A stretch of DNA of 64,000 nt, taken from assembly GCF_051903065.1 (NCBI RefSeq), contig NZ_CP178438.1. The stretch is one strand, 5' to 3'. Numbering within the stretch: position 1 is the first letter of the stretch; every line of letters begins with the position of its first letter. Made by a program: the position numbers. Shown piece by piece: positions 59,401 through 64,000 of the stretch. This DNA is from Escherichia coli. GTDB lineage: Bacteria > Pseudomonadota > Gammaproteobacteria > Enterobacterales > Enterobacteriaceae.

Positions 59401-62400
59401 CAACCGCGAACGCTGTACGATCTGCTCGATGTTCGCGCATTACTGGAGGGCGAATCGGCAAGGCTTGCGGCAACGCTGGGAACCCAGGCTGATTTTGTTG
59501 TGATAACCCGCTGTTATGAAAAAATGCTCGCCGCCAGTGAGAACAACAAAGAGATTTCGCTGATCGAACATGCGCAGTTGGATCACGCTTTCCATCTCGC
59601 CATTTGTCAGGCTTCTCACAATCAGGTGCTGGTGTTTACGCTGCAATCATTGACCGATCTGATGTTTAATTCAGTGTTTGCCAGCGTAAATAATCTCTAC
59701 CATCGACCACAGCAAAAAAAGCAGATCGATCGCCAGCATGCGCGGATCTACAACGCGGTGTTGCAGCGGCTGCCGCACGTCGCCCAGCGCGCAGCACGCG
59801 ATCATGTGCGGACCGTGAAAAAGAATCTCCACGATATCGAGCTGGAAGGCCACCATTTGATTCGCTCGGCGGTGCCGCTGGAGATGAACCTGAGTTAGCT
59901 GGTATTAAATCTGCTTTTCATACAATCGGTAACGCTTGTACGGCTCCGCCCCAATGCGTTCCAGCATGTTATTCATGCCTGTATTGGTTTCGAGGATCCA
60001 TGACATCTCCAGCGCATCGATCTTCCGGCGGGCAAACGGATCGCGTAAGGCTTCAATCAATAACAGCGCAATCACCGGGCCGATGCGGCTGAACTGATAC
60101 TCGTCGCGCACGCCCATCAGCGGTACTCTCGCAGTTCGCACACCGCTGACTTTCAAACGCCACAGCAATTTTGCCCAGCCGAAGGGAAAGAGCGATCCGT
60201 TCAGATCGGCAATCGCCTCGTTGATGTTCGGCAAGCCGACAATAAACGCGCAGGGTGCAGAATCAATCTCAGCGATGTAGATCATATCGTCCGGCACCAG
60301 ATATTTAAGTTGGTCGCCCATGGTCGCGAATTCATGTTCGGTAAACGGCACAAATCCCCAGTTGTGCTGCCAGCCAGAGTTGAAAATCTCACGCAGGATC
60401 TGCATCTCTTCGGCAAACCGCTGACGATTGATGCAGCGAATGGTCACCTTTTTGCGCACCTGATCCATCAGTTTTTTTAGCGCCGGAGAGAAAGTGAGAT
60501 CGGTTCGCTGCATCCACCACGCCAGTAAATCAATGCCTTTGTGATAACCCAGTTGTTCAATATGCGCGGCATACCACGGTTTGCCGTGTGGCATCATCGC
60601 ACAGGGTGGTGTATCGAAACCTTCAATCAGTAATCCGCTTTCCTGATTGATATTCAGGCTGAAAGGACCGCTGATCTTACTTGCACCTTGTGACTTCAAC
60701 CACGCTTCCGCTGCGCCAAACAACGCGGCAAAAACCTGCGGATCATCAATGGCGTCAATCATGCCGAAATGACCGGTATCTTCGCCGTAACGCTCGCGGT
60801 GTAAGGTATCGATTTGCGCGGTAATACGCCCAACTATCTGCCCGGCTATTTTTGCCACCCACGCCTGCCAGATGATATGGTCCGTCCCCGGATTTTTCAC
60901 AGACAAATGCTCGTTGCGTTCAATGAATAAAGGGGGTATCCAGTTTGGATCGTCGGGATAAAGTGATGACGGAAAAGCGATAAATGCCTTAAGGTCATTT
61001 TTATTAGTTACTTTTTCAATTTGAATCATTAGCAGATCGCATTCCATAGTTCTGTAGATAACAAAAAATTAACGGTGACAAACAGGTTGCAACAGCAACG
61101 AACGGCATCTTAATAATCAACCCAATGAATACAAACGACGAATAAATAGTATTTATTAATGATTACGATAAGGTCAGAGACTACACAGAAGCGCCACAAT
61201 GCCTTTTGTCGATTTAAGGCGACCGGACAAGGCTTCTTCTTAATATATTCATAAATTAAATATCATTCACAATAAAAACAAAAAAACTCAAACTCATTAT
61301 TTAAATCAATGTTCATTTTCACACTGATGAAAATACTATCTCATTTATCTTTTATGCCTATATAATCCACCGCATTATTGTCATTTTATTTTGGATATCC
61401 AATTTTTTCGTGGTGTATATGTCTAATAAAATCTTTACGCATTCCCTACCTATGCGCTATGCCGATTTTCCAACGCTGGTTGATGCTTTGGACTACGCCG
61501 CTCTGAGTAGCGCTGGAATGAATTTTTATGACAGACGTTGCCAACTTGAAGATCAACTGGAATATCAGACGTTAAAAGCGCGTGCCGAAGCTGGTGCGAA
61601 GCGGTTGTTATCGCTAAACCTGAAAAAAGGCGATCGCGTGGCGCTGATTGCCGAAACCAGTAGCGGGTTCGTAGAGGCTTTTTTTTCCTGCCAGTATGCC
61701 GGCTTAGTCGCCGTCCCGTTGGCGATTCCAATGGGCGTCGGTCAGCGGGATTCCTGGAGCGCCAAACTGCAGGGTTTACTGGCAAGTTGCCAGCCCGCTG
61801 CCATTATCACTGGTGATGAGTGGTTGCCGCTGGTCAATGCCGCCACGCATAACAACCCCGAATTGCATGTATTAAGCCACACCTGGTTTAAGGCATTACC
61901 GGAAGCCGATGTTGCGCTCCAGCGTCCAGTTCCGAACGATATCGCCTACCTCCAGTACACCTCCGGCAGCACCCGTTTTCCCCGTGGCGTCATTATCACC
62001 CATCGCGAAGTGATGGCTAATCTACGTGCTATAAGCCACGACGGCATTAAATTACGCCCTGGCGACCGCTGCGTCTCCTGGCTGCCTTTCTACCATGATA
62101 TGGGACTGGTCGGCTTTCTCCTGACCCCCGTCGCCACGCAGCTTTCAGTAGATTATTTGCGCACTCAGGATTTTGCCATGCGTCCTCTGCAATGGCTTAA
62201 ATTGATCAGTAAAAATCGCGGCACCGTTTCCGTTGCGCCGCCGTTTGGCTATGAATTGTGCCAGCGCCGCGTGAATGAAAAAGATCTCGCTGAACTGGAT
62301 CTTTCCTGCTGGCGCGTCGCTGGTATTGGTGCAGAACCCATCTCCACAGAACAACTCCATCAATTCGCTGAATGTTTCCGTCAGGTTAACTTTGACAATA

Positions 62401-64000
62401 AAACTTTCATGCCGTGCTACGGACTGGCAGAAAATGCGCTGGCTGTCAGCTTCTCTGATGAAGCCTCCGGGGTTGTGGTTAACGAAGTGGATCGCGACAT
62501 CCTCGAATATCAGGGTAAAGCCGTCGCGCCGGGTGCAGAGACACGCGCCGTATCGACTTTCGTCAACTGCGGCAAAGCGTTGCCGGAACATGGTATTGAA
62601 ATCCGCAATGAAGCAGGTATGCCGGTCGCGGAACGTGTGGTAGGCCATATTTGCATCTCCGGTCCCAGTCTGATGAGCGGTTACTTTGGCGACCAGGCTT
62701 CGCAAGACGAGATTGCCGCGACGGGCTGGTTAGACACTGGCGACCTCGGATATCTGCTGGACGGTTATCTGTATGTCACCGGACGCATTAAAGATCTGAT
62801 TATTATTCGTGGCCGTAATATCTGGCCGCAGGATATTGAATATATAGCGGAACAGGAACCGGAAATTCATTCTGGCGATGCGATTGCTTTTGTTACCGCC
62901 CAGGAAAAAATCATTTTGCAGATCCAGTGTCGGATCAGCGATGAAGAACGTCGCGGGCAGCTTATCCACGCGCTGGCGGCACGGATCCAAAGCGAATTTG
63001 GCGTGACCGCGGCTATCGATCTGTTGCCGCCCCACAGTATTCCCCGAACGTCCTCCGGCAAGCCTGCCCGTGCGGAAGCGAAAAAACGTTATCAGAAGGC
63101 TTATGCTGCAAGCCTTCATGTGCAGGAATCCCTGGCATGAATCAAACTGTCGCGGTGACGGGCGCTACCGGTTTTATCGGTAAATATATTATCGATAACC
63201 TGCTCGCCCGCGGCTTTCACGTTCGCGCATTGACGCGTACTGCCCGCGCTCACGTCAATGATAATCTCACCTGGGTGCGCGGTTCGCTGGAAGATACTCA
63301 TTCACTTAGCGAACTGGTTGCCGGAGCCAGTGCGGTGGTCCATTGCGCCGGGCAAGTGCGCGGACACAAAGAGGATGTCTTTACTCGCTGTAACGTTGAC
63401 GGTAGCCTGCGCTTGATGCAGGCGGCAAAAGAGAGCGGCTTTTGCCAACGTTTTCTATTTATCTCTTCGCTGGCGGCGCGCCATCCCGAGCTCTCCTGGT
63501 ATGCAAAATCCAAACATGTCGCCGAACAACGACTGGCAGCAATGGCGGACGCAATTACGCTGGGCGTTTTTCGCCCAACGGCAGTCTATGGCCCCGGCGA
63601 TAAAGAGTTAAAACCACTGTTTGACTGGATGCTGCGCGGCCTGCTGCCACGGCTGGGCGCACCAGATACACAGCTCTCTTTCCTGCACGTCACCGATTTC
63701 GCACAAGCCGTGGGTCAGTGGTTAAGCGCCGACTCCGTACAGACGCAAACGTATGAATTATGTGATGGTGTCGTCGGTGGCTATGACTGGCAGCGCATAC
63801 AACAACTGGCCGCCGCCGCCCGCCAGGGAGCTGTACGGATGGTCGGCGTTCCTCTGCCGTTGCTCACCTGCCTTGCGGATATCAGTACCGCGTTGAGTCG
63901 CCTGGCAGGTAAAGAACCTATGCTGACCCGCTCGAAAATTCGTGAATTAACCCACGCCGACTGGTCGGCAAGTAATAACCGTATTTCTGAAGATATTAAT

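What the first reader, a model, noticed from the sequence alone, without database searches (positions are those of the whole stretch)
61419..64000. Fatty-acyl-AMP ligase followed by an overlapping SDR epimerase at the window edge
Downstream of yghO the window enters a cluster beginning with an adenylating enzyme and a translationally coupled NAD-dependent epimerase/dehydratase, which looks like the start of a lipid or small-molecule modification operon. Only the first two genes are visible.
Basis: partly seen in the sequence, partly recalled or inferred. Interest (0 to 1): 0.25.

Follow-up and report, generated by a model that had tools for sequence, protein, structure and literature searches.

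The report
E. coli sphingolipid operon, first genes
The two genes at the window edge are the already published start of the Escherichia coli sphingolipid (ceramide) synthesis operon, which most natural E. coli strains carry and the laboratory strain K-12 has lost, so the finding is real but not new.

Summary
A 562-576 aa adenylating enzyme (61410/61419/61452-63140, +) overlaps by 4 bp (ATGA) an extended-SDR gene (63137 onward). The window end cuts that gene at codon 288 of 304.

The first gene is EcFAAL. Its crystal structure is PDB 3PBK, with 7 substitutions over 573 aa. It is the same gene as AasR(Ec), ECD_02851 of BL21(DE3), at 98.2% identity. AasR(Ec) loads a fatty acid onto a dedicated ACP, which serine palmitoyltransferase then uses to make 3-oxo-sphinganine.

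In a genome 2 bases different over the last 19 kb of the window, the next genes are that ACP and spt. Paralogues of lptF/lptG follow on the opposite strand.

The SDR is the CerR/"epi" reductase homologue. In 80 loci from distant bacteria it lies between aasR (70 loci) and acpR-spt (68 and 73 loci). Its function in E. coli is inferred, not tested.

Divergently transcribed yghO folds as a tandem GNAT, which fits the bacterial ceramide synthase.

About 76% of complete E. coli genomes carry the two genes. K-12 lost the block at an IS5.

Novelty: already known. Interest is low. The native E. coli lipid product remains undescribed.

The parts
61410..63140 (+). aasR, also known as EcFAAL. It is a fatty acyl-AMP ligase that acts as a dedicated acyl-ACP synthetase. 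It adenylates a free fatty acid and transfers it to the pathway's own ACP (AcpR), not to CoA.
   Evidence: - ORF.
- Pfam AMP-binding E 4.7e-57.
- NCBIfam NF006624 at 869 bits, cutoff 600.
- PDB 3PBK 'Fatty Acyl-Adenylate Ligase' aligns over 573 residues with 7 substitutions plus M/L at the first aligned residue.
- 98.2% identical to the BL21(DE3) product at the position of ECD_02851.
- Published function: PMC9386255; PMC8460268.
- Published residue numbers fit the 576-aa ORF.
63137..64000 (+). Extended SDR ('NAD-dependent epimerase/dehydratase family'), the CerR/epi homologue. It is the presumed 3-keto reductase of the ceramide pathway. The window end truncates it: 288 of 304 codons are present, and the full gene would end at 64051.
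   Evidence: - ATGA overlap with aasR.
- Pfam Epimerase E 2e-23.
- No NCBIfam model above cutoff.
- Invariant TGxxGFxG, S110 and Y122xxxK126 in 39 homologues.
- AF2 model pLDDT 96.3. The highest TM-scores, 0.79-0.81, are to NDUFA9-type complex I subunits (sequence hits).
- Flanked by aasR in 70 and by acpR/spt in 68/73 of 80 loci from diverse bacteria.
- Named 'epi', ECD_02852, in PMC9386255.
61048..61409 (.). Divergent intergenic region of 362 bp between yghO and aasR, at 30.7% G+C. It presumably holds the promoters of both transcription units. No regulatory element was identified.
   Evidence: - Sequence and G+C.
- Nearly identical in BL21(DE3).
- The consensus sigma-70 scan finds nothing on the + strand and one weak site on the - strand, fewer than in shuffles.
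- No Rfam match.
59905..61047 (-). yghO, a 380-aa tandem-GNAT protein. It is the homologue of the bacterial ceramide synthase / acyl-CoA N-acyltransferase ('aca', bCerS, CC_1154), and it is transcribed divergently from the operon.
   Evidence: - ORF.
- No Pfam or NCBIfam match even at E<=1.
- AF2 model pLDDT 92.4. Best PDB folds are tandem-GNAT acyltransferases: 2WPW, 5KF1, 7Q3A, MshD and FemX.
- A homologue lies within 10 kb of the SDR in 41 of 80 loci.
- Listed as 'aca: yghO ECD_02850' in PMC9386255.

Best explanation
The finding is the 5' end of the known E. coli sphingolipid (dihydroceramide) biosynthesis locus. That locus is the operon aasR - cerR/epi - acpR - spt, with the divergent gene yghO (bCerS/aca) upstream.

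Mechanism, step by step:
1. AasR (EcFAAL) adenylates a free medium- or long-chain fatty acid. It rejects CoA and transfers the acyl group to the 4'-phosphopantetheine arm of the dedicated carrier protein AcpR. This step is shown for the E. coli orthologue by crystallography and biochemistry.
2. The PLP enzyme Spt condenses acyl-AcpR with L-serine, releasing CO2, to give 3-oxo-sphinganine. This step is shown by co-expression of the three E. coli genes.
3. YghO, a tandem GNAT, N-acylates the long-chain base. This step is inferred from homology, fold and synteny.
4. The SDR at the window edge reduces the 3-keto group with NAD(P)H to give dihydroceramide. This step is inferred from homology to Caulobacter CerR/epi and from synteny. 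It has not been tested in E. coli, and the order of steps 3 and 4 is disputed in the literature.
5. The adjacent LptF/LptG paralogues and the YghQ flippase-like protein probably export the lipid to the outer membrane. This step is inferred by analogy to Caulobacter LptF2G2.

The 4-bp ATGA overlap suggests that aasR and the SDR are co-translated.
For: Identity of the first gene:
- 3PBK aligns over 573 aa with 7 substitutions. All published active-site and mutagenised residues are in place.
- It is 98.2% identical to the BL21(DE3) protein at the ECD_02851 position, with identical gene order yghO / FAAL-SDR-ACP-spt / lptG-lptF.

Published function:
- AasR(Ec) + AcpR(Ec) + SPT(Ec) give 3-oxo-sphinganine, and AasR(Ec) acylates only its own AcpR (PMC9386255).
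- EcFAAL loads C12 onto EcACP and rejects CoA (PMC8460268).
- The crystal contains lauroyl- and myristoyl-AMP (PMC11837247).

Other evidence:
- Spt passes the NCBIfam equivalog for serine palmitoyltransferase (599.5 bits, cutoff 500).
- SDR: the catalytic S-Y-K and the Rossmann motif are invariant. The fold is NDUFA9-like, as reported for CerR (PMC11087976). The order aasR-SDR-acpR-spt is conserved in 68-73 of 80 loci from Enterobacterales to Nitrosomonas, Nitrospira, Geobacter and Desulfopila. These include N. eutropha, whose genes Neut_0458-0461 the paper names.
- Purifying selection: dN/dS is 0.158 (aasR), 0.115 (SDR), 0.074 (spt) and 0.136 (yghO) against BL21(DE3).
- YghO folds as a tandem GNAT.
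- The E. coli UTI89 'sphingolipid operons', with LptF2/G2, are drawn in a 2026 preprint.
Against: - No paper found here reports a sphingolipid made by an unmodified E. coli strain. In PMC9386255, BL21(DE3) with empty vectors or with SPT alone showed no new lipid on TLC, although it carries the whole locus. The native operon may therefore be silent under laboratory conditions.
- The SDR and YghO steps have not been tested for the E. coli proteins. The paper says only that they 'might' encode these activities.
- I could not align the SDR directly with Caulobacter CerR, because no Caulobacter locus was among the 80 returned. That link rests on the published homology statement and on synteny.
- ACP, spt and everything downstream lie outside the window. 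I read them from a near-identical genome, not from the window itself.
- Caulobacter CerR is reported to be periplasmic. The E. coli protein starts directly with the Rossmann strand and has no signal peptide, which is unexplained.
Confidence: 0.9

Rival explanations
1. Same pathway, different order of steps. In this reading the SDR is a 3-ketosphinganine reductase that acts on the free long-chain base before N-acylation, as in eukaryotes. It would not be a ceramide reductase acting after YghO.
For: PMC9386255 (Padilla-Gomez et al. 2022), citing Olea-Ozuna et al. 2021, proposes exactly this for ECD_02852 and ECD_02850. When 3-oxo-sphinganine was produced in BL21(DE3), a compound migrating like sphinganine appeared. 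The E. coli SDR has no export signal, which fits a cytoplasmic enzyme acting early.
Against: In Caulobacter, deleting cerR accumulates oxidised ceramide, and CerR localises to the periplasm while Spt and bCerS are cytoplasmic (PMC11087976). Nothing in the sequence data here distinguishes the two orders.
Confidence: 0.3
2. The locus is an intact but functionally silent or decaying relic in E. coli. It makes no lipid in nature, and the two genes have no current role.
For: - BL21(DE3) carries the full locus, yet shows no extra lipids without over-expression.
- K-12 lost the block at an IS5. Some strains carry an IS1 in yghO (H1 and H3).
- The upstream region is 30.7% G+C with no consensus sigma-70 promoter on the + strand. 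That is compatible with silencing.
Against: - All ORFs are intact.
- dN/dS is 0.07-0.16 across the operon.
- At least 80% of the two genes is present in 4108 of 5426 complete genomes.
- The same 13-gene neighbourhood is conserved at 53-88% protein identity in Hafnia, Pluralibacter, Cedecea, Pseudocitrobacter, Mangrovibacter and Rosenbergiella.
- G+C is host-like, 49-57%.
Confidence: 0.1
3. The FAAL primes a polyketide or lipopeptide natural-product pathway, which is the usual genomic context of bacterial FAALs. The SDR would be a tailoring enzyme.
For: The FAAL literature states that typical bacterial FAALs sit next to PKS/NRPS genes (PMC8460268). The protein also hits NRPS/PKS loading-domain models below cutoff.
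Against: No PKS or NRPS gene lies within 14 kb downstream. The acceptor is a stand-alone 75-aa ACP followed by an alpha-oxoamine synthase that passes the SPT equivalog. The product was shown to be 3-oxo-sphinganine.
Confidence: 0.02
4. The SDR is a nucleotide-sugar epimerase or dehydratase that serves the neighbouring 'LPS biosynthesis' and Lpt-like genes. In this reading it is unrelated to the FAAL.
For: The Pfam family name, and Foldseek hits to GalE/RmlB-type enzymes. The neighbours are annotated as lipopolysaccharide biosynthesis/export proteins.
Against: - GalE, RmlB, RmlD and the other sugar-enzyme equivalogs score 20-42 bits against cutoffs of 224-500.
- The best TM-scores are to NDUFA9 subunits.
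- The gene is wedged between aasR and acpR-spt in most of 80 distant loci, many of which lack any Lpt or YghQ neighbour.
Confidence: 0.03

Closest known systems
EcFAAL (PDB 3PBK; Zhang et al. 2011, Patil et al. 2021), also known as AasR(Ec), ECD_02851 of E. coli BL21(DE3) (Padilla-Gomez et al. 2022)
   Same: It is the same gene. The alignment with 3PBK covers 573 aa with 7 substitutions, and identity to the BL21(DE3) allele is 98.2%. The neighbours are the same, and all published catalytic and pocket residues are conserved.
   Different: Only allelic differences. The two bodies of literature do not refer to each other. The FAAL papers never mention sphingolipids, and the sphingolipid paper never mentions FAAL or 3PBK.
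Caulobacter crescentus dihydroceramide genes CC_1165 (aasR), CC_1164 (epi/cerR), CC_1163 (acpR), CC_1162 (spt), CC_1154 (aca/bcerS)
   Same: The same five functions are clustered. According to PMC9386255, these are the only two organisms among those compared in which all five cluster. LptF/LptG paralogues and a flippase-like gene lie next to the locus in both.
   Different: - E. coli AasR does not acylate Caulobacter AcpR.
- The E. coli locus has no LCB5-type ceramide kinase CpgB or CpgA/C head-group genes. Instead it has YghQ, three P-loop proteins YghR/S/T, a 274-aa protein with no family, and a YtfJ-like protein.
- I did not test direct sequence similarity to the Caulobacter proteins.
Mycobacterial FAALs (FadD32-Pks13, FadD28, FadD23)
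   Same: They share the ANL fold, the FAAL-specific insertion and the acyl-AMP-then-ACP logic. They score 205-285 bits against the NCBIfam models and have PDB E-values from about 1e-39 to 3e-66.
   Different: They feed polyketide synthases for mycolic acids and other complex lipids. Here the acceptor is a stand-alone ACP that feeds a PLP-dependent alpha-oxoamine synthase.
NDUFA9 / 39-kDa subunit of respiratory complex I
   Same: These are the closest solved folds to the SDR, with TM 0.79-0.81 and 19-22% identity. They are also among the best sequence hits (E 4e-13 to 1e-11). The same relationship was noted for CerR.
   Different: NDUFA9 is a non-catalytic accessory subunit. The SDR here is a free-standing protein of a lipid operon and keeps an invariant catalytic S-Y-K triad.
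Eukaryotic 3-ketodihydrosphingosine reductase (KDSR/Tsc10) and Bacteroides BT_0972
   Same: All are SDR-superfamily enzymes that reduce the 3-keto group of the sphingoid backbone.
   Different: KDSR is a classical, membrane-bound SDR that acts before N-acylation. The protein here is an extended SDR of the NDUFA9 type. This is convergence rather than orthology, which is also the view of the Caulobacter literature.

Membership tests
Fatty acyl-AMP ligase (FAAL) | ANL-superfamily adenylation fold that scores above the curated FAAL model cutoff | tested here: met
   Pfam AMP-binding E 4.7e-57. NCBIfam NF006624 'fatty acyl-AMP ligase' scores 869.1 bits against a cutoff of 600, while FadD-type CoA-ligase models are far below their cutoffs.
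Fatty acyl-AMP ligase (FAAL) | FAAL-specific insertion in the N-terminal domain, plus the alternative 4'-PPant pocket residues | tested here: met
   The segment 363-386 (DILEYQGKAVAPGAETRAVSTFVN) and the pocket residues T83, P107 and T252 are present. The segment is identical to the crystallised EcFAAL 3PBK. Their roles are described in PMC11837247 and PMC8460268.
Fatty acyl-AMP ligase (FAAL) | Forms acyl-AMP, does not make acyl-CoA, and transfers the acyl group to holo-ACP | not testable with these tools
   This is published for the orthologue, which is 98-99% identical. EcFAAL loads EcACP (PMC8460268). AasR(Ec) acylates AcpR(Ec) (PMC9386255).
AasR-AcpR-Spt module of Rhodobacteria (sphingolipid entry module) | aasR is linked to a dedicated acpR that lies immediately upstream of spt | tested here: met
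   This holds in the near-identical genome (2 mismatches in 19 kb) and in BL21(DE3). In 80 SDR-anchored loci, AasR occurs in 70, AcpR in 68 and Spt in 73, all in the same order and on the same strand. ACP and spt themselves lie beyond the window end.
AasR-AcpR-Spt module of Rhodobacteria (sphingolipid entry module) | Spt is a bona fide serine palmitoyltransferase and not BioF or Kbl | tested here: met
   The NCBIfam equivalog NF047599 scores 599.5 bits (cutoff 500). BioF scores 334 (cutoff 426) and Kbl 297 (cutoff 460), both below cutoff.
CerR / 'epi' bacterial ceramide-pathway reductase | Extended SDR with an NAD(P)-binding GxxGxxG motif and a catalytic Ser-Tyr-Lys, related to NDUFA9 | tested here: met
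   G9, G12, G15, S110, Y122 and K126 are invariant in 39 homologues. The AF2 model has pLDDT 96.3. The best TM-scores are to NDUFA9-type subunits, and the sequence hits agree.
CerR / 'epi' bacterial ceramide-pathway reductase | Genomic linkage to spt across taxa | tested here: met
   73 of 80 homologue loci have spt within about 1-6 kb downstream. These include N. eutropha and Sphingomonadales, as in Fig. 9 of PMC9386255.
CerR / 'epi' bacterial ceramide-pathway reductase | Direct sequence homology to Caulobacter CCNA_01222 / CC_1164 | not tested
   No Caulobacter sequence could be obtained with the tools, and none was among the best 80 loci. PMC9386255 asserts the homology for ECD_02852.
CerR / 'epi' bacterial ceramide-pathway reductase | Reduces the 3-keto group of oxo-ceramide or 3-oxo-sphinganine | not testable with these tools
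   This has not been tested for the E. coli protein in the literature found. [quoted passage not shown]
Nucleotide-sugar epimerase/dehydratase (GalE, RmlB, RmlD, Gmd) | Score above the curated equivalog cutoff | tested here: not met
   GalE scores 30.6 bits (cutoff 262). dTDP-glucose dehydratase scores 22.5 (cutoff 365). RmlD scores 20.2 (cutoff 224). HpnA scores 95 (cutoff 368). All.
Bacterial ceramide synthase bCerS / 'aca' (YghO) | GNAT-type N-acyltransferase fold linked to the spt locus | tested here: met
   The AF2 model has pLDDT 92.4. The top PDB folds are all tandem-GNAT acyltransferases, with E 3e-16 to 1e-12. A homologue lies within 10 kb in 41 of 80 loci. No Pfam or NCBIfam model matches.
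FAAL-primed PKS/NRPS natural-product cluster | A PKS or NRPS megasynthase adjacent to the FAAL | tested here: not met
   The 14 kb downstream of the FAAL holds no such gene in either genome.

The most novel reading that the evidence does not exclude
Natural E. coli isolates, about three quarters of complete genomes, and many other Enterobacterales may natively make an outer-membrane sphingolipid that has never been described, because K-12 lacks the locus.

Its head group would differ from Caulobacter's ceramide phosphoglycerate. The enterobacterial locus has no CpgABC-type genes. Instead it carries its own conserved set: the YghQ flippase-like protein, three P-loop dTMP-kinase-like proteins YghR/S/T, a family-less 274-aa protein and a YtfJ-like protein. 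LptF2/G2 paralogues lie next to them.

The FAAL and SDR of the finding would be the entry and finishing enzymes of that unknown lipid. Because EcFAAL co-crystallised with C12 and C14 adenylates, the lipid might have an unusually short long-chain base.
Probability: 0.3. Interest if true: 0.55.

Novelty: already known. Interest (0 to 1): 0.12.

Why it matters
The finding itself adds nothing new. The first gene has had a crystal structure since 2011 and a demonstrated role in making the sphingolipid precursor since 2022. The whole E. coli locus is drawn in a 2026 preprint.

Three points are still worth recording:
- E. coli is taught as having no sphingolipids, yet 4108 of 5426 complete genomes carry these genes under purifying selection. 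The textbook view reflects an IS5-associated deletion in K-12.
- The structural-enzymology literature on 'EcFAAL' and the lipid literature on 'AasR' describe the same protein without citing each other. The physiological pathway of EcFAAL is therefore sphingolipid synthesis, not a PKS/NRPS product.
- The native lipid, its head group, its regulation and its role in the gut or in infection are still unknown.

Tried and rejected
- I first assumed the whole window was strain ECNB21-M121 and drew passing notes from its annotation. A direct comparison showed this holds only from about 40 kb onward. I discarded those notes and re-annotated the first 24 kb from strain W2-5.
- I tried to read Stankeviciute et al. 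2022 (Nat Chem Biol) for the primary CerR data. The library does not hold it, so I used later papers from the same laboratory.
- I hoped the genome scan would return a Caulobacter locus for a direct CerR comparison. It did not appear among the best 80.
- I looked for a regulatory RNA or a clear promoter in the 362-bp yghO-aasR spacer. There is no Rfam match and no + strand consensus promoter.
- Base composition gives no sign of recent foreign origin.
- I considered and rejected a PKS/NRPS context and a sugar-epimerase role.
- Literature searches for a natively produced E. coli sphingolipid found none.

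
Full report
**1. What is in the sequence**

The window is E. coli chromosome. Its last 19 kb differ by 2 bases from strain ECNB21-M121, and neither difference lies in the region of the finding.

After glcC (+) and yghO (59905-61047, -) comes a 362-bp spacer of 30.7% G+C. A + strand ORF then runs to 63140. It can start at three positions:
- GTG 61410, giving 576 aa;
- ATG 61452, giving 562 aa, the RefSeq start.

The residue numbers published for EcFAAL are T83, P107, T252, P310, C336, Y337, D445 and V456. All land on the right residues only in the 576-aa numbering. The crystallised construct includes the SNKIFTHSLP segment. The longer forms are therefore at least as credible as the RefSeq start. 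None of the three has a good ribosome-binding site.

The next ORF starts at 63137 within GGCATGAATC. This is a 4-bp ATGA stop/start overlap. The window end cuts it after 288 of 304 codons.

Pfam and NCBIfam confirm the family labels:
- The first ORF matches AMP-binding and the fatty acyl-AMP ligase subfamily NF006624 (869 bits, cutoff 600).
- The second matches the 'NAD-dependent epimerase/dehydratase' Pfam family, but no curated NCBIfam model comes near its cutoff.

**2. What lies downstream**

In ECNB21-M121 and in BL21(DE3) the order is the same:
- FAAL, SDR, a 75-aa acyl carrier protein and serine palmitoyltransferase;
- then, convergent and separated by a G+C-rich hairpin, paralogues of lptG and lptF, a YtfJ-family protein and a 274-aa protein with no family;
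- then the MOP-flippase-like YghQ, the P-loop proteins YghR, YghS and YghT, and pitB.

Spt passes the NCBIfam serine palmitoyltransferase equivalog (599.5 bits, cutoff 500). The BioF and Kbl models fall below their cutoffs.

**3. The locus is already known**

Padilla-Gomez et al. 2022 (PMC9386255) studied this locus in BL21(DE3). They name ECD_02851 aasR, ECD_02852 epi, ECD_02853 acpR, ECD_02854 spt and yghO/ECD_02850 aca. They report three results:
- AcpR(Ec) carries 4'-phosphopantetheine.
- AasR(Ec) acylates AcpR(Ec) but not the Caulobacter AcpR.
- Co-expression of the three E. coli genes yields 3-oxo-sphinganine.

For the SDR and YghO they say only that these 'might' be the reductase and the N-acyltransferase.

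The window's proteins compare with those of BL21(DE3) as follows:

| Protein | Identity to BL21(DE3) |
|---|---|
| AasR | 98.2% |
| SDR | 94.7% |
| AcpR | 100% over 75 aa |
| Spt | 99.5% |
| YghO | 98.7% |

Independently, the first gene is 'EcFAAL'. PDB 3PBK aligns over 573 residues with 7 substitutions. The structure holds lauroyl- and myristoyl-adenylate (PMC11837247). Patil et al. 2021 showed that EcFAAL transfers the acyl group to its partner ACP through an alternative pocket and rejects CoA (PMC8460268).

The FAAL papers contain no mention of sphingolipids. The sphingolipid paper contains no mention of FAAL or 3PBK. The eLife paper states that typical bacterial FAALs are always found with PKS/NRPS genes, and this locus is an exception to that.

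A 2026 preprint draws the E. coli UTI89 'sphingolipid operons' beside those of Caulobacter and Sphingomonas. [quoted passage not shown]

**4. Independent tests of the SDR assignment**

The E. coli SDR has never been assayed, so I tested what could be tested.

- *Family size.* The family is large. 493 clusters at 50% identity match with E<=1e-30, and orthologues occur throughout Enterobacterales.
- *Conserved residues.* In an alignment of 39 members at 34-64% identity, TG-x-x-GF-x-G, S110 and Y122-x-x-x-K126 are invariant. It is therefore a catalytically competent extended SDR.
- *Fold.* An AlphaFold model (pLDDT 96.3) has its highest TM-scores, 0.79-0.81, to NDUFA9-type complex I subunits. These are also the best sequence hits in the PDB. 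Uchendu et al. reported the same relationship for Caulobacter CerR.
- *Synteny.* A scan of one genome per species returned 80 loci, from Enterobacterales, Pseudomonas, Nitrosomonas, Nitrospira, Geobacter, Desulfopila, Sphingomonadales and others. tblastn with the E. coli proteins found the following:

| Neighbour of the SDR | Loci (of 80) |
|---|---|
| AasR immediately upstream, same strand | 70 |
| AcpR downstream | 68 |
| Spt downstream | 73 |
| YghO within 10 kb | 41 |
| LptG2 | 36 |

The Sphingomonadales loci lack an adjacent aasR, exactly as the paper's Figure 9 describes.

- *Sugar-enzyme models.* GalE, RmlB and RmlD score 20-31 bits against cutoffs of 224-365. 'Epimerase' is therefore only a family name.

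I could not compare the protein directly with Caulobacter CerR.

**5. YghO**

K-12 annotates yghO as a 'putative DNA-binding transcriptional regulator'. No Pfam or NCBIfam model matches it even at E<=1.

A model built on 22 homologues (pLDDT 92.4) matches tandem-GNAT acyltransferases: 2WPW, 5KF1, 7Q3A, MshD and FemX, with E down to 3e-16. This fits the proposed N-acyltransferase (ceramide synthase) role and does not fit a regulator.

**6. Status in E. coli**

- *Distribution.* At least 80% of 61452-64000 is present in 4108 of 5426 complete genomes, always as a single chromosomal copy apart from a few cases.
- *K-12.* In K-12 MG1655 an IS5 sits between yghO and a 5'-truncated yghQ, and the whole block from aasR to the 274-aa gene is missing.
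- *Selection.* dN/dS against BL21(DE3) is 0.158 for aasR, 0.115 for the SDR, 0.074 for spt and 0.136 for yghO.
- *Composition.* G+C is host-like.

These data argue against decay. On the other hand, BL21(DE3) shows no new lipids unless the genes are over-expressed. The upstream spacer is AT-rich without a recognisable + strand promoter. I found no report of a sphingolipid from an unmodified E. coli. Whether, when and what the native locus produces is open.

**7. Mechanism and its weak points**

*Shown for the E. coli proteins:* fatty acid plus ATP gives acyl-AMP on AasR/EcFAAL. The acyl group passes to holo-AcpR. Spt then condenses it with serine to 3-oxo-sphinganine.

*Inferred:* N-acylation by YghO, 3-keto reduction by the SDR, and export by LptF2/G2 with LptB and YghQ.

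*Disputed:* the order of acylation and reduction. The Klein laboratory's data in Caulobacter place CerR after acylation and in the periplasm. The Geiger laboratory proposes the eukaryote-like order. The E. coli SDR begins directly with its Rossmann strand and has no signal peptide, so a periplasmic location would need an unconventional route.

The enterobacterial locus lacks the LCB5-type ceramide kinase CpgB of Caulobacter. It has its own conserved set, YghQ/R/S/T, the 274-aa protein and the YtfJ-like protein. This set is found only in Enterobacterales, a Luteibacter, one betaproteobacterial MAG and, for YghR/S/T only, weakly in two Pseudomonas loci. Any head group is therefore likely to differ.

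**8. Verdict**

The object is already known, so interest is low.

The residual novelty lies outside the finding: the undescribed native lipid of wild E. coli, and the unrecognised identity of EcFAAL with AasR.

Noticed in passing
window 59905-61047 (-): K-12 annotates yghO as a 'putative DNA-binding transcriptional regulator', and no Pfam or NCBIfam model matches it. Its confident AlphaFold model is nevertheless a tandem-GNAT acyltransferase. This fits the ceramide-synthase role proposed in the sphingolipid literature.
   Followed up: yes
window 63137-64000 (SDR gene) compared with its neighbours: Between this strain and BL21(DE3), the SDR gene has dS 0.229 and 93.2% nucleotide identity. The flanking aasR, acpR, spt and yghO have dS 0-0.05 and 98-100% identity. 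A divergent allele seems confined to this one gene, probably through recombination. This may also explain why 962 genomes match the two-gene query at only 90-95%.
   Followed up: partly
literature on window 61410-63140: The structural and enzymological papers on 'EcFAAL' (3PBK) never mention sphingolipids, and the sphingolipid paper on 'AasR(Ec)' never mentions FAAL or 3PBK. They describe the same gene. The MxFAAL/MxACP pair of the eLife paper has adjacent UniProt accessions, so it may likewise be the Myxococcus AasR/AcpR pair (MXAN_6636/6637). I did not verify this.
   Followed up: partly
beyond the window end; L001 20539-27876 (would be window 65538-72875): Next to spt lie LptG/LptF paralogues, a YtfJ-family protein, a 274-aa protein with no family, YghQ (MOP flippase-like) and three P-loop dTMP-kinase-like proteins YghR/S/T. 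The YghQ/R/S/T, 274-aa and YtfJ-like set travels with the sphingolipid genes only in Enterobacterales and a few others. It replaces the CpgABC head-group genes of Caulobacter. Its function is unknown.
   Followed up: partly
L085 (K-12 MG1655 3130146-3132408): In K-12 an IS5 lies between yghO and a 5'-truncated yghQ (1068 bp instead of 1350 bp). The roughly 8-kb block from aasR to the 274-aa gene is absent. This is why the model strain has no sphingolipid genes.
   Followed up: yes
window 13441-22099: A chromosomally integrated multidrug-resistance region, read from the annotation of strain W2-5, which is 100% identical in BLAST over window 1-24000 (one mismatch, at about position 16333, on direct comparison). 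It contains an ISCR2 fragment, floR (15235-16449), tet(A)/tetR(A) (17049-19004), aph(6)-Id and aph(3'')-Ib (19584-21223) and sul2 (21284-22099).
   Followed up: no
window 1-11577: Genes typical of a defence or mobile island: the end of a type I restriction-modification M subunit (1-227), a 1137-aa DEAD/DEAH helicase-family protein (291-3704), a MazG-like protein, a thymidylate synthase (7885-8865), an IS3 and a dGTP triphosphohydrolase-family protein (10345-11577). P-fimbria regulatory and papA fragments follow (about 12022-13513).
   Followed up: no
window 45245-50293: Remnants of a type VI secretion locus (VasL-domain protein, tssE, tssJ, truncated tssG), a truncated Wadjet JetD gene and a truncated GIY-YIG nuclease gene. 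An IS1 just upstream of glcA ends the stretch (window coordinate = L001 coordinate + 44999).
   Followed up: no
L001 20505-20538 (would be window 65504-65537): A G+C-rich inverted repeat (GCCCGCTGTGG...CCACGGCGGG) fills the 34-bp gap between the convergent spt and lptG paralogue. It looks like a bidirectional terminator that closes the four-gene operon.
   Followed up: no
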